A DNA stretch of 64,000 bases from Eubacteriales bacterium. GTDB lineage: Bacteria; Bacillota; Clostridia; Oscillospirales; CAG-272. Shown here piece by piece: positions 3,324 through 59,815 of this stretch (position 1 is the first letter of the stretch; each line of letters begins with the position of its first letter). The translations under genes and the position numbers were made by a program. Location of the stretch: assembly GCA_045631745.1 (NCBI GenBank), contig JAZQVI010000028.1:1489-65488 (forward strand), read 5' to 3'. The notes under the pieces were generated by a model. That model saw nothing but the letters and a program-made list of their open reading frames with translations. It did not search any database and was not told the DNA's origin.

Positions 3324-3674
3324 ATGTACAATCCCAATCAATCCGCATCCTCAAGGCGCGCGGCAGAAGAGCTTTTGCGCCGAATGAATCAGTCGGCGCC
3401 CTTCGGCTGCGCGTGCGGAGAAATCCGACCGCGGCAGGAGCTGCCCCCCATGCAAAACGGTTGCGGCTGTAACTGCAACGATCACGCGCACAGCCAGGGC
3501 TGCGTACCGTCCGGCACCCCCGATATGCCCGCACTCGCGATGGTGTATTCCCCTCGTCAGTCGTGGACGTGTCTGATGGATACCCCCGAGATGGCACTGG
3601 CGCACGGAACGCTCTTTCACGAGCTTTTCAAGCCCTTTGAAGGAAACGGCGTCCGCCGCTCTCCAAAATGCTGA
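3324..3674 (+). CDS. cotJA: spore coat-associated protein CotJA
   Basis: C-terminal signature PALAMVYSPRQSW..ALAHGTLFHELFKPFEG matches the CotJA pattern (LAMAYVPWQ..GTIFPEL..PF). SD aaggag lies 8 nt upstream. It is the first gene of a cotJABC arrangement. Confidence 0.8.
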   Translation: MYNPNQSASSRRAAEELLRRMNQSAPFGCACGEIRPRQELPPMQNGCGCNCNDHAHSQGCVPSGTPDMPALAMVYSPRQSWTCLMDTPEMALAHGTLFHELFKPFEGNGVRRSPKC

Positions 3675-3689
3675 GGGAGGTAAAAGACG

Positions 3690-3959
3690 ATGGAACAGAC
3701 AACCTGCAAGAGCTGTGCTCTGATCATGAAAAAGCTGCGCGAGGTCGATTTCTGCCTGAACGAGACGGTGCTCTATCTTGACGCCTACCCCGACCATGCG
3801 CAGGCACTCGATTACTATCACAAATTGCTCTGCGAGCGCGCCTCTCTCATGGAGCAATACCAAAAGAACTGCGGTCCGCTCACCTTCTACGGCAACGAGA
3901 GCCACACCTCATGGGATTGGGTAAAGACCCCCTGGCCATGGGAAGCCGACGCTGACTGA
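3690..3959 (+). CDS. cotJB: spore coat protein CotJB
   Basis: 89 aa with LREVDFCLNETVLYLDAYPDH..AL..Y and a C-terminal W.W...PWPWE motif typical of CotJB. Confidence 0.85.
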   Translation: MEQTTCKSCALIMKKLREVDFCLNETVLYLDAYPDHAQALDYYHKLLCERASLMEQYQKNCGPLTFYGNESHTSWDWVKTPWPWEADAD

Positions 3960-3985
3960 CTACAACACGAAAGGACCGAATCATC

Positions 3986-4606
3986 ATGTGGACTTATGAA
4001 CGAAAGCTGCAATATCCCGTCAAGATCAAGAAGCCGAACGCCAAGGCGGCCCAGCTGATCATTTCTCAGCTCGGCGGCCCCGACGGCGAGCTCAACGCCT
4101 CCATGCGCTATCTTAACCAGCGCTACTCTATGCCCTACCGCGATGTGGTGGGCATTCTGACCGATGTTGGCACGGAGGAGCTCGCCCATCTCGAAATGGT
4201 GGCAACCATCCTCTATCAGCTCACCAAGGGGCTGAGCGAATGCGAGATCGAAAACAGTCCCTTTGCCCCCTATTTCATCGATCACACCACGGGGATTTAC
4301 CCCTGTGCATCGGCCGGCTTCCCCGACACCATGAGCGCGATTGCCGTCAAGGGAGACATCATCACCGACCTCAACGAGAATCTGGCGGCAGAGCAAAAGG
4401 CGAGAACCACCTATGACAACATTCTGCGCCTGGTGGACGATCCCGACGTCCGAGATCCCATCAAGTACCTGCGCGAGCGCGAGGTCGTGCATTATCAGAG
4501 ATTTGCCGACGCCCTCCGTCGAACCCAGGAGCATTTGGACAGCAAGAATTTCTACGCGTTCAATCCCTCCTTTGAAACGGGTACCGGAAAGACGAAAAAC
4601 TGCTGA
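3986..4606 (+). CDS. cotJC: spore coat protein CotJC (manganese catalase family)
   Basis: MWTYERKLQYPVKIKKPNAKAAQLIISQLGGPDGELNASMRYLNQRY..GTEELAHLEMVATI shows ferritin-like Mn-catalase motifs. The last ~33 codons are duplicated downstream of fic. Confidence 0.9.
   Translation: MWTYERKLQYPVKIKKPNAKAAQLIISQLGGPDGELNASMRYLNQRYSMPYRDVVGILTDVGTEELAHLEMVATILYQLTKGLSECEIENSPFAPYFIDHTTGIYPCASAGFPDTMSAIAVKGDIITDLNENLAAEQKARTTYDNILRLVDDPDVRDPIKYLREREVVHYQRFADALRRTQEHLDSKNFYAFNPSFETGTGKTKNC
4502..4584 (+). repeat. direct repeat copy A (cotJC 3' end); copy B is at 5524..5606
   Basis: 83 nt tttgCcgacgccctccgtcgaacccaggagcatttggacagcaagaatttctacgc.. recurs 1022 bp downstream with 4 mismatches. The copies diverge after gggtac. 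Confidence 0.9.
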
Positions 4607-4622
4607 AATATCAAACAAAAAA

Positions 4623-4660
4623 GGGCGGCTTGGATTTTTCGAGCCGCTCTCTTTACTTTT
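4623..4660 (+). terminator. putative intrinsic terminator after cotJC
   Basis: Hairpin gggcggct..agccgctc followed by tctctttactttt. Confidence 0.5.
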
Positions 4661-4742
4661 CTGCAGATTTGTGATACAATTCACATTCGATTGATATATC
4701 CGATAAAAATCACATATCATTCAAAGAAAAAACGTGATTCAC

Positions 4743-4771
4743 TTGCAATCAGCGGAGTTTTGTGATATAAT
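4743..4771 (+). promoter_or_regulatory. sigma-A promoter for fic
   Basis: TTGCAA (4743-4748), 17 nt spacer, TGaTATAAT extended -10 (TATAAT 4766-4771). Confidence 0.55.
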
Positions 4772-4798
4772 ATAGACAGCAAAAGAAAGGAGATCGAC

Positions 4799-5407
4799 AT
4801 GGTTCTCGATAATAAGCTTGGCATTACCAATTCCGCTGATCTTGCTCGCGAGGAGGAACGAATCAGCAAATTGAAGGCAGTCGAACTGTTTGAAACGAAT
4901 TATTTGGATACACTCAAAGCAGGAACATTCGACGCACTTTGCAAAATCCATGCCTTCCTTTTTTCAGAAATCTATCCGTTTGCGGGAAAGCTCCGAACGG
5001 TGAATATTTCAAAAAGCAATTTCCGATTTGCGCCACTCATGTATCTGGAGGCAGCACTGGCAAACATTGAAAAAATGCCTCAGCACACATTCGATGAGAT
5101 CGTTGAAAAATACGTAGAAATGAACATCGCCCACCCCTTCCGTGAAGGAAACGGCAGAAGCACGCGAATCTGGCTTGATCACATTCTGAAAACCGAATTG
5201 GGAATGGTGGTGGATTGGAGCCTTGTGGACAAGGAGGATTATCTCCTTGCAATGGAACGAAGCCCAATCAAGGATATTGAAATCAAGCACCTCCTAAAAA
5301 ATGCTTTAACCAACAAAACCGACGATCGCTTGGTGTTCATAAAAGGCATCGACCACAGTTATTACTACGAGGGATATTCGGTTTATAAGACCGAGGATTT
5401 GAAGTAA
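4799..5407 (+). CDS. fic: Fic family AMPylase, class III (C-terminal auto-inhibitory helix)
   Basis: Active-site HPFREGNGRSTR matches the Fic motif HxFx(D/E)GNGRxxR. The C-terminal SYYYEG matches the inhibitory (S/T)xxxE(G/N) motif. 202 aa with SD aaaggag. GC is visibly lower than the flanks. Confidence 0.9.
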   Translation: MVLDNKLGITNSADLAREEERISKLKAVELFETNYLDTLKAGTFDALCKIHAFLFSEIYPFAGKLRTVNISKSNFRFAPLMYLEAALANIEKMPQHTFDEIVEKYVEMNIAHPFREGNGRSTRIWLDHILKTELGMVVDWSLVDKEDYLLAMERSPIKDIEIKHLLKNALTNKTDDRLVFIKGIDHSYYYEGYSVYKTEDLK

Positions 5408-5523
5408 TCAAACAGCAAAAAAACAACGCTTTTGCCTTGTTTTAAGCGATTTTTAGAAACACTGCAAAATGCGAAAAGCCTTATGCCGCAAGGCAAAAAA
5501 CGGCATTTGTTTGAAACAGTCGG

Positions 5524-5622
5524 TTTGGCGACGCCCTCCGTCGAACCCAGGAGCATTTGGACAGCAAGAATTTCTACGCATTCAACCCCTCCTTTGAGAC
5601 GGGTACAAAGCACGGAAAGTAA
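5524..5622 (+). pseudogene. orphan duplicate of the cotJC 3' end (last ~32 codons, no start)
   Basis: In-frame reading gives ..DALRRTQEHLDSKNFYAFNPSFETGTKHGK*, versus cotJC ..DALRRTQEHLDSKNFYAFNPSFETGTGKTKNC*. A strong terminator follows. Confidence 0.75.
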
Positions 5623-5628
5623 AAAAGC

Positions 5629-5662
5629 AGGAGACGCAAGCCAACATGGCTTTGCGTCTCCT
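5629..5662. terminator. bidirectional intrinsic terminator
   Basis: Hairpin aggagacgcaagcc..ggctttgcgtctcct, with T-runs on both strands. It sits between the cotJC remnant (+) and the phosphoesterase gene (-). Confidence 0.7.
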
Positions 5663-5682
5663 GTTCGTTTGTATGACGTAAA

Positions 5683-6732
5683 TTAAATCAAACGGAACGT
5701 TCCGCTCGAGATCTGTGTATCTCTGCCGAACTTCTCGTCGGGGGCAATGTTTGCATACCAATCGGACCGATCTCCCTCGATGATGACCTCACCGTCGGTG
5801 CTGACCGTCACGATCGCCGACAGGGGCTTTGCAAAGTACCAGGTCTGCTTTGACATCCACAAGTCATTGAGTGCATAGTTGTAGGTGCAGACAGGATCGC
5901 CGTTTTCATTATATTCAGTGTAGGGGATGCTAAGTCCGTTATAATGCTCCAGGTCGGGAGTGTGTTGCCAATGACCGTTGCGGACGGTGTTGACGTCAAA
6001 ATGCACCACGCCATCGATCTCCTTCAGATGGTTGGTGTGAAGATGTCCGCTGGCAGAGAGCAGAACCGTTCCCTTTCGTTTCTCATTGGCACGGTCAAAG
6101 ATCGCCCGAACCTCTTTCCAATCGGGGGTAGATTCCCACTCGCCCGAAAAACCGGTGTGCGAAAAGATCAGACAGCGCAGATCCTTCTCTGCCGCATCCA
6201 TCAGGATTTTTTCGAGCCATTTGAGCTGAACTTCCCCTAAAGAATTGATCTTTTCATTCCCTGCAGGCGCGCCCCAGCTGGCGGTGCGGTTGTGCTCCAT
6301 CTCACCTGTAGTAGGATTCAGAGAATAGTTACTGTCCAAGCCGATCACGCGGAAGCCGCGCACATCAAAATAGAAATATCCAATGGTTCCGTCTCCGATC
6401 TTGCCGTCCGTCGTACCCCAAACAACCTCTCTGTTGCAGAGCATGGGCGTCACAACTTCCATGCTGTTCCCTGCAGATTCCAGCTCGTGGTTGCCGTAGA
6501 TACCATACACGGGGAGATCATAGCGATTTTTCAGATACGCCTTCATAAGCTCGGGAGATTTGCCGTAATCGTTGCAGAAATCCCCAACGTGCAGCGCAAA
6601 ATCCGCCTCGCTCTCATGTGCGCGATCCAGGATCGCGTTCATGTCCTCGATGGAGGTGATGTACATTCCCTTTTTGTAGTGAAGATCGGCAAACAGGGAG
6701 AATTTAATGGTGTTCTTTTTCTTGTCGCTCAT
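5683..6732 (-). CDS. metallophosphoesterase (calcineurin-like)
   Basis: FADLHYK.., HVGDFCND, GNHE, SHTG and GHLH motifs occur in the canonical order of calcineurin-like phosphoesterases. Confidence 0.85.
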   Translation of the reverse strand: MSDKKKNTIKFSLFADLHYKKGMYITSIEDMNAILDRAHESEADFALHVGDFCNDYGKSPELMKAYLKNRYDLPVYGIYGNHELESAGNSMEVVTPMLCNREVVWGTTDGKIGDGTIGYFYFDVRGFRVIGLDSNYSLNPTTGEMEHNRTASWGAPAGNEKINSLGEVQLKWLEKILMDAAEKDLRCLIFSHTGFSGEWESTPDWKEVRAIFDRANEKRKGTVLLSASGHLHTNHLKEIDGVVHFDVNTVRNGHWQHTPDLEHYNGLSIPYTEYNENGDPVCTYNYALNDLWMSKQTWYFAKPLSAIVTVSTDGEVIIEGDRSDWYANIAPDEKFGRDTQISSGTFRLI

Positions 6733-55621: not shown

Positions 55622-56173
55622 ATGGAAGATGAGAGAATCGTTGCACTGTATTGGGAACGCAACGAAAGCGCAATTCGAGAAACCGAGAAAAAATACGGAA
55701 AATACTGCTATGCCATCGCATACAATATTCTTCATTCGCACGAGGATTCGGATGAATGTGTAAACGATACCTGGAACGGCACGTGGAACGCAATTCCTCC
55801 CGAAAAGCCAACCGTGCTGAAGTGCTTTCTCGCTCGCATAACGCGAAACATCGCCATCGACCGATATCGGTATGACGGTGCACAAAAGCGAAGCGCAGAG
55901 GTAGAAAGCGCGATGGATGAATATTGGGAGTGTATTCCAAACAAAGAGGCCTCAATCGAGGACGAATACATCCTAAAGCAGGCAATCAACGGATTTCTTG
56001 AAAGTCTGGACAAACGCACCCGCGTTATCTTTATGCGCAGGTATTGGTATTCGATGAGCGTTAAGGATATCGCCGACAGAATGCGTCTTTCGGAGGCTCA
56101 TGTCAGTGTCATCCTACACAGAACCAGAAGCAAATTTAAGGATTATCTTACGAAGGAGGGGATATTTGTATGA
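55622..56173 (+). CDS. ECF-type sigma-70 family RNA polymerase sigma factor
   Basis: Region 2 (..Y..IAYNIL.S.EDSDECVNDTW) and region 4 HTH (MSVKDIADRMRLSEAHVSVILHRTRSKFKDYL). SD aaggagg. Confidence 0.85.
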   Translation: MEDERIVALYWERNESAIRETEKKYGKYCYAIAYNILHSHEDSDECVNDTWNGTWNAIPPEKPTVLKCFLARITRNIAIDRYRYDGAQKRSAEVESAMDEYWECIPNKEASIEDEYILKQAINGFLESLDKRTRVIFMRRYWYSMSVKDIADRMRLSEAHVSVILHRTRSKFKDYLTKEGIFV

Positions 56174-58342: not shown

Positions 58343-59815
58343 TTATACTACACAAGGGATATCAATGCTGGAGAAGATAGCTCTTGCTTCAGGATATAAC
58401 GCCCACCGGAATGCAGGATGAACTTCCCAATCGTAACCAAACTCGGCATATTCAGTAGAAAGATAATTGTTGTCCTCAAAGTATTTTCGGTCAATATATC
58501 CGTCTCCCGAATCCTTTCTTGCTACTATGAAATTGATTTTATACATAAAAGCAAGCAATTCCTTAGCAGTTGCTGTATGACCATCAGCAAAAACAAAATC
58601 ACCACCCTGCATAATACCGGAGATTTTACTTAGAATTTGACTTTCTGTGTATTTATGGGAGCCAGTTAGTTTCTTTTGCTCGTGATTTGGCTTCATTCCA
58701 AGCAAAAGACGTCTAATAGATGGCAACTCATATCTATGCTCGTTGATGGTATCTTGTAATCTATTTTGTGAATACTGGGAAAAAACAGACTCCCAATCTG
58801 ATGTAGTTATTTTCTCTTCACGGTTACTACGCGCCTCTCGTGCCGCTTGTATACATAAATTAATTAAATCCCTGGGTCTCCTTCTTGTAAGTGACAAGAG
58901 AATATAGTGAATTGGTCGATTGTTCCACTTGCCATCTCCCATGAAGTGACTATCCATAATTGGATACAATAATTTTGCAATTTCAAATTGTGGTTTTTTT
59001 AGCAAATTCCTTTCTGAGACAGAGTATCCCAGATAACTTTGTATGCGCTTTGCTAAAAAAACCAACAACTCATGTTCAGTCCAGGATAGCCAAATTACAT
59101 TTCCCTCAATTTTGTCCGTTGATTCATCGGCAGTACGTACCAAGAAATAAACGTCACTACGCAAACTAATTCGGAATTGCAAACCAGAAGATTCATTCGA
59201 GAGATCGCGAACAGCATTTAAAAGCGCAGCAATTCTCTTGACGTTATTTGCTGTGCCCTCCCATGCTCTGTCTAAATCGTCAATGTATACAACCAATTTA
59301 CGATTGGCAAGATATTTTTTGCAAATAATTTGTCTTGTTTTTTCAATATCAACTTTATCGTTTATCCCTCTAATTATTGTTGTGATTTTATCTATTAATT
59401 TTACACCTTTTCCAAGAATCTCATTTGCGAGGCGAGAATCGGTGTCGATTTGAAACTCTCTCATCACTAATTCTGTGATGAGAGAATTAAGCCCATTTTT
59501 CCACTTTTCTATGAGATTTAGAGGGTTTTCATTCTCACTTACTTCACACAAATCTGAAATATCATTTGGTCGAATCCACAATGATAGTATATTTTGTTCT
59601 AAATTCTCTTCATACGACATTCTAAACAACGCGGATTTACCAACACCTTTATGAGCGACTAAAATTCTTAATGGTCGATCATTGTGGATTTGGTCATATA
59701 TGGCGCTTTTGAAAAAACTGCTTTTAAAGCGTCCAATTTCCTCGTCCTCTGCAGCAAGTTCTCCAAATAGTCCTGTAATTTGTTCTTCTGAAAAAGTTAT
59801 ACGATTCTGCACCAA
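58343..59815 (-). CDS. standalone P-loop NTPase (AAA+/ORC-like lid), on an AT-rich islet
   Basis: Walker A LVAHKGVGKSALF, Walker B KLVVYIDDLDRAW, lid-like RRRPRDLINLC, unknown ~150-aa C-terminal domain. TTG/GTG start behind gagagga. Much more AT-rich than its neighbours by eye. Confidence 0.8.
   Translation of the reverse strand: MVQNRITFSEEQITGLFGELAAEDEEIGRFKSSFFKSAIYDQIHNDRPLRILVAHKGVGKSALFRMSYEENLEQNILSLWIRPNDISDLCEVSENENPLNLIEKWKNGLNSLITELVMREFQIDTDSRLANEILGKGVKLIDKITTIIRGINDKVDIEKTRQIICKKYLANRKLVVYIDDLDRAWEGTANNVKRIAALLNAVRDLSNESSGLQFRISLRSDVYFLVRTADESTDKIEGNVIWLSWTEHELLVFLAKRIQSYLGYSVSERNLLKKPQFEIAKLLYPIMDSHFMGDGKWNNRPIHYILLSLTRRRPRDLINLCIQAAREARSNREEKITTSDWESVFSQYSQNRLQDTINEHRYELPSIRRLLLGMKPNHEQKKLTGSHKYTESQILSKISGIMQGGDFVFADGHTATAKELLAFMYKINFIVARKDSGDGYIDRKYFEDNNYLSTEYAEFGYDWEVHPAFRWALYPEARAIFSSIDIPCVV

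What the first reader, a model, noticed from the sequence alone, without database searches (positions are those of the whole stretch)
4502..5622. Lower-GC fic cassette flanked by an 83-bp direct duplication of the cotJC 3' end
The last ~83 nt of cotJC (4502-4584) recur at 5524-5606 with 4 mismatches. The second copy is still in frame, ends with its own stop (..ETGTKHGK*) and is followed by a strong bidirectional terminator. The resident cotJC ends ..ETGTGKTKNC* with a weaker hairpin. Between the copies lie a promoter (4743-4771) and a 202-aa fic gene whose GC is visibly lower than that of the cot genes and the downstream phosphoesterase gene.

The simplest reading is that a ~1.0 kb fic module inserted into, or recombined at, the end of cotJC, duplicating the target. 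No integrase, transposase or inverted repeats accompany it, so the mobilisation mechanism is not evident.
Basis: seen in the sequence. Interest (0 to 1): 0.6.

Follow-up and report, generated by a model that had tools for sequence, protein, structure and literature searches.

The report
Fic gene beside a fossil integration scar
The fic gene and the extra copy of the cotJC gene end are most likely the right-hand leftover of a mobile element that once cut into the spore-coat gene cotJC at a spot many related elements use; it is ordinary mobile-DNA archaeology, with one unresolved twist.

Summary
cotJC 4502-4584 recurs at 5524-5606 with 79/83 bases identical. With a 6-nt indel the repeat runs on to 4591/5619. 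A lower-GC, promoter-bearing 202-aa fic gene lies between the copies.

The reading "a 1-kb module duplicated its target" is only partly right. Copy 2 starts exactly at cotJC codons R-F-G-(D/E)-A. In related genomes that point is the crossover site of elements driven by a large serine recombinase (LSR). At least 8 genomes have cotJC split there, and in 4 of them an LSR gene abuts the 3' fragment.

The 21 nt before copy 2 (5506-5526) are the P arm of one such element family. The matching attB and attL occur in a sister species. An attP-like site sits directly behind a 95%-identical fic in another contig.

So fic plus copy 2 is a fossil attR. Copy 1, its hairpin and a promoter-like box are the normal cotJC 3' flank also seen in relatives without cargo. 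The two copies differ almost only at synonymous sites, which points to two alleles placed side by side rather than a duplication in place.

No recombinase remains in the assembled genome. How the intact copy was regained is inferred, not shown. Fic is a class III, EfFic-like AMPylase that matches PADLOC defence candidate PDC-S04.

Interest is moderate.

The parts
3324..3674 (+). cotJA
   Evidence: Pfam PF11007, E 1.8e-10
3690..3959 (+). cotJB
   Evidence: Pfam PF12652, E 5.7e-27
3986..4606 (+). cotJC, intact, 206 aa (Mn-catalase family)
   Evidence: Pfam PF05067, E 1.5e-49. It is 93% identical to cotJC of the closest genome, G024.
4502..4591 (+). Repeat copy 1: the 3' end of the intact cotJC. 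It is attB-like, with the core equivalent GCCGACGC at 4505-4512.
4622..4650 (+). cotJC terminator hairpin ('hairpin A'), homologous to the hairpin after cotJC in G004, G014, G416, L134, L135 and L137
   Evidence: folds at -20.3 kcal/mol
4652..4680 (+). Promoter-like box TTTACT-17-TACAAT, part of the conserved cotJC 3' flank. No ORF follows it here.
4686..4719 (.). Inferred join between the cotJC flank of an intact allele and the fic module. Neither homology covers this stretch.
   Evidence: By eye from the sequences printed, homology to the cotJC flanks ends near 4685. Homology to fic modules starts at 4720 (L038/L039) or 4754 (L041).
4743..4771 (+). fic's own promoter-like site (TTGCAA-17-TATAAT, TG-extended)
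   Evidence: partly conserved with L041 (89.7% over 4754-4792)
4799..5407 (+). fic, 202 aa, a class III Fic AMPylase (HPFREGNGRSTR at 112-123; inhibitory SYYYEG at 187-192)
5408..5505 (+). Conserved non-coding 3' flank of fic
   Evidence: 83.5% identical to L041 over 5416-5517
5506..5526 (+). P arm of the element's attachment site (TTTGTTTGAAACAGTCGGTTT)
   Evidence: Matches the P arm of L041 and mirrors L041's P' arm
5527..5534 (+). Core GGCGACGC, equivalent to GGTGATGC in attB, attL and attP of the sister-species set
5524..5622 (+). Repeat copy 2: the displaced cotJC 3' end (B' side of attR), in frame, with its own stop at 5620-5622
5621..5670 (.). Strong hairpin shared with the convergent phosphoesterase gene (terminator on both strands)
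   Evidence: (I3)
5683..6732 (-). Metallophosphoesterase gene. It is absent from this position in G024, so it may belong to the same variable island.

Best explanation
The stretch fic / P arm / copy 2 (about 4720-5622) is the right-end remnant, a fossil attR, of an integrative element. That element inserted by site-specific recombination into cotJC at codons R-F-G-D-A (core GGYGAYGC). The recombinase was most likely a large serine recombinase.

fic was the last cargo gene next to the element's attachment site. It has its own promoter and is a candidate defence or addiction gene.

The left end of the element, with attL and the recombinase gene, is gone. In its place stands an intact cotJC 3' end (copy 1) with the hairpin and promoter-like box that normally follow cotJC in this clade.

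The most economical route is recombination between an occupied allele and an intact allele of a close relative. One crossover was homologous, in shared flanking DNA. The other was an illegitimate join near 4686-4719.

Shown:
- the repeat;
- the module limits;
- the att quartet;
- the hot spot and its recombinases;
- the native nature of the copy-1 flank;
- the absence of a recombinase in this genome.

Inferred:
- that the recombinase of this particular family is the LSR seen in G439;
- the route by which the intact copy was regained;
- what Fic does.
For: 1. Module limits. Homology to a 95%-identical fic in another context (L041) runs from 4754 to 5520 and stops 3 nt before copy 2.

2. Att quartet.
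- attB is L143, an intact cotJC of a sister species.
- attL is L133, whose cotJC 5' part is 518/528 nt identical to L143 and which then reads ..GGTGATGC|AAATTTGACTGTTTCAAACAG.
- The attP-like site is in L041: fic, then ..GTTTGAAACGGTAAGATC GGTGATGC AAATTTGACTGTTTCAAACAG, with arms that are a 15/19 inverted repeat.
- attR is the window: fic, then ..GTTTGAAACAGTCGGTTT GGCGACGC, then the cotJC tail.

3. The same breakpoint is used by LSR-bearing elements elsewhere.
- G037 has a 26.4-kb element with a 502-aa LSR abutting the cotJC 3' fragment, and it also carries a Fic gene.
- An LSR gene abuts the 3' fragment in G039 and G408, and a truncated one does in G416.
- cotJC is also split there in G219, G069 and G020.

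4. G439 has cotJC split at the same codon, a mirrored P' arm, an LSR 2.6 kb inside the attL end, and fic directly before P arm / core / cotJC tail at the right end.

5. The hairpin and promoter-like box after copy 1 follow cotJC in loci without any cargo (L135, L137). They have diverged about as much as the gene body, apart from a few mosaic pairs.

6. Differences between the copies fall mostly at synonymous sites. In the window 4 differing codons are synonymous and 1 is not. In the parallel case G014, 9 are synonymous and 1 is not.

7. The own genome has no LSR homologue and only one copy of the cassette.

8. fic GC is 2.4 sd below the local ORF mean.
Against: - The four att forms come from different genomes or samples.
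- The core-proximal half of the window's P arm matches L041's P arm only moderately. Over the 18 nt next to the core the match is 12/18.
- The recombinase of this P-arm family is inferred from G439 alone.
- In G014 and G416 the cargo ORF fills the space between the conserved promoter and the P-arm relic almost exactly. That is odd for random illegitimate joins and hints at a more regular process.
- With only 5 differing codons in the window, the synonymous bias is weak on its own.
- Gene conversion between the copies could blur their history.
Confidence: 0.6

Rival explanations
1. Cassette model. The unit [cotJC tail / hairpin / promoter / cargo / P arm] is itself a small mobile cassette. As a circle its site is P arm / core / tail. 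A trans-acting LSR, or another recombinase, inserts it at the cotJC core. This regenerates an intact cotJC (attB) on the left and pushes the old tail downstream, so arrays build up as in an integron or an SCC composite island.
For: - The same architecture occurs in four independent genomes with different cargo: the window, G014, G416 (three tails in series) and G439 (two).
- In G014 and G416 the cargo ORF sits snugly between the conserved promoter and the P-arm relic.
- In G416 and G439 the regenerated attB was hit again by a full element.
- cotJC tails are mosaic relative to gene bodies in some pairs: L134/L137 are 0.70 in the body and 0.87 in the tail module, while G004/G014 are 0.92 and 0.75.
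Against: - LSRs are known to pair attP with attB, not a P-B' hybrid site with attB (established knowledge of the family).
- The hairpin and promoter occur after cotJC with no cargo and no second tail (L135, L137). Overall they have diverged like the gene, as a native flank would.
- In the window an orphan promoter box and a 35-nt unmatched stretch lie between the flank and fic's own promoter, which looks like an accidental join.
- No identical cassette was seen in two genomes.
Confidence: 0.15
2. Campbell-type route. An aberrantly excised or packaged piece of an occupied locus (fic / attR / tail, or tail / hairpin / ... / fic / P arm as a circle) entered a cell with an intact cotJC. It integrated by a single homologous crossover within the roughly 90-nt tail.
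For: - A single crossover in the tail gives exactly two tail copies in direct order, with the P arm before the second one.
- The copies share a 51-nt exact run and are 95% identical.
- Copy 1 looks hybrid: it is ETGT-type like copy 2 but ends GKTKNC* like the hairpin-A-type tails.
Against: - Ninety nucleotides is short for RecA-dependent integration.
- The route needs a circular intermediate that has not been seen.
- It does not by itself explain the orphan promoter box and the unmatched 4686-4719.
- With present data it is hard to tell apart from the main explanation.
Confidence: 0.12
3. Assembly chimera. The contig joins reads of two co-existing strains of a metagenome, one with an intact cotJC and one with an occupied cotJC, so the serial arrangement does not exist in any one cell.
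For: - The genome is a 95-contig, 83%-complete MAG.
- The repeat contains a 51-nt exact run.
- Read support could not be checked.
Against: - A join through the repeat would give one tail, not two in series.
- The only candidate false join (4686-4719) has no long exact repeat; the nearest is a 16-nt match at 88% (D7).
- Independent assemblies show the same architecture (G014, G416, G439).
Confidence: 0.05
4. A 1-kb fic module transposed or inserted into the cotJC end and duplicated 83 nt of target in place.
For: Direct repeats flank a low-GC gene.
Against: - There is no transposase, no terminal inverted repeats, and no second copy in the genome.
- 83-90 nt is far beyond known target-site duplications (established knowledge).
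- The left 180 nt of the supposed insert are native cotJC flank.
- Differences between the copies are biased to synonymous sites.
- A recombinase half-site precedes copy 2.
Confidence: 0.03

Closest known systems
skin-type intervening elements and prophages that split sporulation genes and carry a SpoIVCA-like large serine recombinase at their edge. Examples: sigK/skin; SPbeta in spsM (own knowledge, not checked here); a skin-like element in cotJC of Laceyella sacchari (Galperin et al., bioRxiv 10.1101/2022.02.25.481979).
   Same: - The target is a mother-cell spore gene, cotJC itself.
- In related genomes the LSR gene abuts the 3' fragment of the split gene (G037, G039, G408, G416).
- The crossover is at a short core between imperfectly palindromic arms.
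   Different: - In the window the gene is not split and no recombinase is left. Only the attR side and one cargo gene survive, next to an intact gene copy.
- Developmental excision is untested.
e14 and phage 21 in the E. coli icd gene: an integrated element flanked by a working icd 3' end and a displaced pseudo-3' end (own knowledge, not checked here).
   Same: - An intact ORF is kept.
- An orphan copy of the gene's 3' end lies at the far side of the foreign DNA.
- The two ends differ mostly at synonymous sites.
   Different: - In icd the replacement 3' end is carried by the element, and the integrase is a tyrosine recombinase.
- Here the working 3' end has the clade's native flank, and the att sites look like LSR sites.
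Recombinase-less remnants bounded by att-derived repeats at the 3' end of a conserved gene: CIMEs derived from ICESt1/ICESt3 at fda, and pseudo-SCC elements at rlmH left by Ccr serine recombinases (own knowledge).
   Same: - A small cargo block without its recombinase.
- Direct repeats derived from the attachment region.
- Arrays arise by repeated use of the same site (compare G416 and G439).
   Different: - The left repeat here is attB-like rather than attL-like, so the block is not expected to be excisable by the cognate recombinase.
- No trans mobilisation has been shown.
Class III Fic proteins: Enterococcus faecalis EfFic (PDB 5NV5) and Neisseria meningitidis NmFic (PDB 2G03, 3S6A). Also PADLOC candidate defence family PDC-S04.
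   Same: - Full-length match to EfFic, E 1.4e-83, and to NmFic, E ~5e-60.
- The Fic motif and the C-terminal inhibitory SxxxEG motif are present.
- PDC-S04 matches at E 2.8e-101 over 201/202 profile positions.
   Different: - Activity, target and any defence role are untested.
- Homologues at 73-86% identity sit in many unrelated chromosomal contexts and several phyla.

Membership tests
Class III Fic AMPylase (EfFic/NmFic type) | Catalytic motif HxFx(D/E)GNGRxxR | tested here: met
   HPFREGNGRSTR at residues 112-123; Pfam PF02661, E 3.8e-14
Class III Fic AMPylase (EfFic/NmFic type) | Inhibitory helix motif (S/T)xxxE(G/N) at the C-terminus of the same chain | tested here: met
   SYYYEG at residues 187-192 of 202
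Class III Fic AMPylase (EfFic/NmFic type) | Full-length sequence homology to solved class III members | tested here: met
   5NV5 E 1.4e-83 over residues 2-201; 2G03/3S6A E ~5e-60
Class III Fic AMPylase (EfFic/NmFic type) | AMPylation / de-AMPylation activity | not testable with these tools
   Needs a biochemical assay
PADLOC PDC-S04 (candidate single-gene phage defence) | Match to the family HMM | tested here: met
   PDLC04842, E 2.8e-101, profile positions 1-201/202
PADLOC PDC-S04 (candidate single-gene phage defence) | Protection against phage | not testable with these tools
   The family itself is only a candidate
Integrated large-serine-recombinase element (prophage, ICE or skin-like) | Large serine recombinase gene in the element | tested here: not met
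   No such ORF lies between or beside the repeats. No LSR homologue is in the assembled genome. One is present in related occupied loci.
Integrated large-serine-recombinase element (prophage, ICE or skin-like) | attR = P arm / core / B' at the right end | tested here: met
   Window 5506-5534 followed by the cotJC tail, aligned with attP-like L041 and with the attR sites of G439
Integrated large-serine-recombinase element (prophage, ICE or skin-like) | attL = B / core / P' at the left end | tested here: not met
   The left copy is B / core / B', i.e. attB-like. attL forms are seen only in L133, G439, G416 and G037.
Integrated large-serine-recombinase element (prophage, ICE or skin-like) | attP with imperfect dyad symmetry around a short core | tested here: met
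   L041 arms match 15/19 around GGTGATGC. The G416 arms are 90% complementary (I2).
Integrated large-serine-recombinase element (prophage, ICE or skin-like) | Empty and occupied alleles of the same site in one species | tested here: inconclusive
   Met in a sister species (L143 vs L133, 518/528 nt). Not testable for the window's own species.
skin-like developmentally excised intervening element | Sporulation gene split into two parts, rejoined by excision | tested here: not met
   cotJC 3986-4606 is intact
Transposon / insertion sequence | Transposase, terminal inverted repeats and a short target-site duplication | tested here: not met
   There is no transposase ORF and no terminal inverted repeats. 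The repeat is 83-90 nt.

The most novel reading that the evidence does not exclude
The cotJC 3' end may be a cassette-accreting platform. Small promoter-bearing units [cotJC tail / hairpin / promoter / one to three genes / P arm] would be inserted at the R-F-G-D-A core by large serine recombinases acting on a hybrid P arm / core / tail site. Each insertion would regenerate an intact cotJC and a fresh attB. Arrays of defence and surface-protein genes would then pile up downstream (G416 has three tails, G439 two; G014 and the window have one cassette each). This would be functionally like an integron or an SCC composite island, but built on a spore-coat gene.
Probability: 0.12. Interest if true: 0.75.

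Novelty: new variant of a known kind. Interest (0 to 1): 0.4.

Why it matters
It explains a puzzling recombinase-less "cassette" as the scar of a known kind of event. It also shows that one short stretch of cotJC (codons ~173-176) is a shared landing site for at least three families of serine-recombinase elements in small-genome gut Clostridia.

Until now cotJC interruption had been noted in passing for one thermoactinomycete.

Two practical points follow. Orphan cotJC 3' fragments are useful markers of past integration and of gene regain. cotJC genes that are "truncated" at aa ~176 or ~136 in MAG annotations are probably split by elements, not pseudogenes.

The recurrent pattern intact gene / cargo / attR is not described, to my knowledge. 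If it turns out to be a regular process, it would be a new way of capturing genes.

The Fic cargo belongs to a very widespread, highly conserved candidate defence family whose function is untested.

Tried and rejected
Searches that gave nothing:
- The element's P' arm was sought in viral contigs, JGI metagenome contigs and 401 family genomes with 3 mismatches allowed. All gave 0 hits. This family is so far seen only in ENA metagenome contigs and G439.
- The empty-site junction GGTACAAAGCACGGAAAGTAA was sought in JGI metagenome contigs, with 0 hits.
- The search of earlier findings returned nothing.
- Rfam on 4400-5750 gave only sub-threshold chance hits.
- A second P or P' arm in the own genome was sought. 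Matches were at control level.

Readings rejected:
- Transposon: no transposase or terminal inverted repeats.
- Duplication in place: synonymous bias and the P arm.
- Hairpin A plus promoter as a recently mobile module. I held this view at first, because the hairpin recurs across genera. I dropped it after finding it behind cotJC with no cargo and diverged about as much as the gene.
- Copy 1 as an element-borne surrogate tail. This is kept only as a rival.
Full report
**1. Observation**

cotJC 4502-4584 recurs at 5524-5606 with 79 of 83 bases identical. The longest exact run is 51 nt, against at most 14 nt in shuffles of the same 4.5 kb.

Copy 2 is in the cotJC frame and ends with its own stop (..ETGTKHGK*). 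The resident gene ends ..ETGTGKTKNC*. Allowing a 6-nt indel (GGTAC[AAAGCA]CGGAAAG), the homology runs on to 4591/5619, the last sense codon of copy 2.

Pfam confirms cotJA, cotJB, cotJC, a 202-aa Fic protein and a convergent metallophosphoesterase. The promoter-like site 4743-4771 and both hairpins are present.

GC falls to 0.39-0.45 between the copies, against 0.54-0.60 in the cot genes. fic is 2.4 sd below the mean of 48 local ORFs; at third codon positions it is only 1.3 sd below.

The cassette is single-copy in the 1.64-Mb, 95-contig MAG that holds the window.

**2. What is foreign and what is not**

Fic homologues at 73-95% identity number in the thousands. They sit in unrelated contexts and several phyla.

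DNA homology between the window and those loci covers only 4720/4754-5520. That is fic's own promoter, the gene and about 110 nt of 3' flank. It stops 3 nt before copy 2.

The 180 nt after the start of copy 1 behave differently. The cotJC tail, a GGGCGGCTTGG..CGAGCCGC hairpin, a T-rich tract and a TTTACT-17-TACAAT box are homologous to what follows cotJC in G004, G014, G416, L134, L135 and L137. In L135 and L137 nothing is inserted there at all.

In most pairs this flank has diverged about as much as the gene body. A few pairs are mosaic.

So copy 1 and its flank are an ordinary cotJC 3' end. The promoter-like box 4652-4680 is left without a gene. A 35-nt stretch (4686-4719) matching neither side marks a join.

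**3. The right junction is an attR**

Four sequences line up on an 8-nt core.

| Site | Source | Sequence around the core |
|---|---|---|
| attB | L143, intact cotJC of a sister species (93% protein identity to ours) | ..CAAAGGTTT GGTGATGC CCTTCGTCGG.. |
| attL | L133, same species as L143 (518/528 nt identical upstream) | same up to the core, then AAATTTGACTGTTTCAAACAG.. |
| attP-like | L041, behind a fic gene 95% identical to ours | ..GTTTGAAACGGTAAGATC GGTGATGC AAATTTGACTGTTTCAAACAG |
| attR | window, behind fic | ..GTTTGAAACAGTCGGTTT GGCGACGC, then the cotJC tail |

In L133 the protein reads ..RFGDA|NLTVSNRFYTYQKG. In L041 the two arms are a 15/19 inverted repeat.

The set has the standard attB / attL / attP / attR logic. 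Empty and occupied alleles co-exist in a close relative.

**4. The site is a hot spot and the enzyme is a large serine recombinase (LSR)**

cotJC is broken at the same codons in G037, G416, G219, G069, G408, G020 and G439. G010 may be a further case, but its contig ends there.

| Genome | What is at the breakpoint |
|---|---|
| G037 | A 26.4-kb element; a 502-aa LSR (Resolvase + Recombinase + Zn-ribbon) ends 20 nt before the cotJC 3' fragment. It also carries a Fic gene, a KAP NTPase and two tyrosine integrases. |
| G039, G408 | An LSR gene abuts the 3' fragment. |
| G416 | A truncated LSR gene abuts the 3' fragment. |
| G439 | Same P-arm family as the window. cotJC is split, the P' arm mirrors the P arm, an LSR lies 2.6 kb inside the attL end, and the right end reads HTH / HipA-like kinase / fic / P arm / core / cotJC tail. 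|

At least three P-arm families use the same core.

A preprint records a skin-like element in cotJC of Laceyella sacchari and notes that SpoIVCA-type recombinases sit at the edge next to the 3' gene fragment (10.1101/2022.02.25.481979).

The window's genome has no LSR homologue.

**5. Two alleles, not one duplicated**

The copies differ at five codons, four of them synonymous. In the parallel case G014 (cotJC tail / hairpin / promoter / 281-aa ORF / P-arm relic / second tail), nine of ten differing codons are synonymous.

Both tails therefore evolved as coding sequence before they were placed side by side. Both copies are equally far from the closest available genome, G024 (63-64/75), and close to each other (71/75). 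The two source alleles were thus close relatives, or later gene conversion has made the copies alike.

Synteny with G024 holds on both sides. Between cotJC and the ntp gene, however, G024 has a 448-aa membrane protein instead of fic and the phosphoesterase. The space downstream of cotJC is variable.

**6. Explanation**

The best reading (0.6) has four steps:
- An LSR element of the L041/G439 type was integrated in cotJC of this lineage or of a close relative. fic was its last gene, next to attR.
- Recombination followed between that occupied allele and an intact allele.
- One crossover was in homologous flanking DNA. The other was an illegitimate join at about 4686-4719.
- The result kept an intact cotJC with its native flank, and left fic / P arm / core / displaced tail behind.

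The direction cannot be decided. Either the intact end was imported into an occupied locus, or the attR fragment was imported next to an intact gene.

A Campbell-type single crossover in the 90-nt tail is a close variant (0.12).

A more regular cassette-insertion process (0.15) is suggested by three things. The same architecture recurs in G014, G416 (three tails) and G439 (two). In G014 and G416 the cargo ORF fits snugly between the conserved promoter and the P-arm relic. In G416 and G439 a full element later re-used the regenerated attB. Known LSR chemistry does not predict it.

Assembly chimera (0.05) and literal target duplication (0.03) are unlikely.

**7. The cargo**

Fic carries the catalytic motif HPFREGNGRSTR and the C-terminal inhibitory motif SYYYEG.

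It matches E. faecalis EfFic over its full length (5NV5, E 1.4e-83) and NmFic. It also matches PADLOC's candidate defence family PDC-S04 (E 2.8e-101).

It has its own promoter and lower GC than its neighbours. In G439 it is linked with an HTH/HipA-like pair, and in G037 with a KAP NTPase. It therefore looks like an accessory defence or addiction gene of mobile elements. This is inference, and no function was tested.

**8. Verdict**

- The object is a new variant of a known kind: a recombinase-less attR fossil beside a regained gene, at a cotJC hot spot for skin-like or prophage LSR elements.

Noticed in passing
L025/L037 (G018:C26), L036 (G018:C53), L026 (G003), L027 (G009), L029 (G031): There is a second breakpoint in cotJC at about aa 136 (..NEDLAAD|). 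In G018 the 3' part (aa 133-202) lies on another contig, directly after a different large serine recombinase (23% identical to the G037 enzyme).
   Followed up: partly
L084 (roe deer MAG JAFTPX010000009.1), about 3590-6606: A cotJC N-terminal fragment (aa 1-65, minus strand) lies between a serine-recombinase-like ORF and a fic homologue. This may be a third breakpoint in cotJC with fic nearby.
   Followed up: no
L042 (G416:C20) 4125-6622: Three cotJC tail copies lie in series (4125-4220, 4758-4853, and a partial one at 6546-6576). They separate a 148-aa lipoprotein-like ORF and a 464-aa BspA-type LRR lipoprotein, each behind a hairpin plus promoter.
   Followed up: partly
window 5416-5517: About 100 nt of non-coding DNA after fic are 83% identical to the same position in L041, although the proteins come from different genomic contexts. 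This could hold accessory sites of the attachment region or a small RNA. No Rfam match.
   Followed up: partly
window 58343-59815 (-): A 490-aa ORF has GC 0.369 (GC3 0.31), the lowest in the window, and no Pfam match. An ECF-type sigma factor gene (55622-56173, GC 0.463) lies nearby. This is possibly another foreign island.
   Followed up: no
window 4665-4680 and 4756-4771: The two extended -10-like boxes (AGATTTGTGATACAAT and AGTTTTGTGATATAAT) are 88% alike and 91 nt apart. One belongs to the cotJC flank and one to the fic module.
   Followed up: partly
window 5683-6732 (-): The metallophosphoesterase gene is missing from the syntenic interval of the closest genome, G024. The variable island after cotJC may therefore be larger than the fic cassette.
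   Followed up: partly
L034 (G039:C1) and G039:C5: G039 has a full-length cotJC on one contig. On another it has an LSR gene abutting a cotJC 3' fragment. This is either the same intact-plus-attR architecture or two strains binned in one MAG.
   Followed up: no
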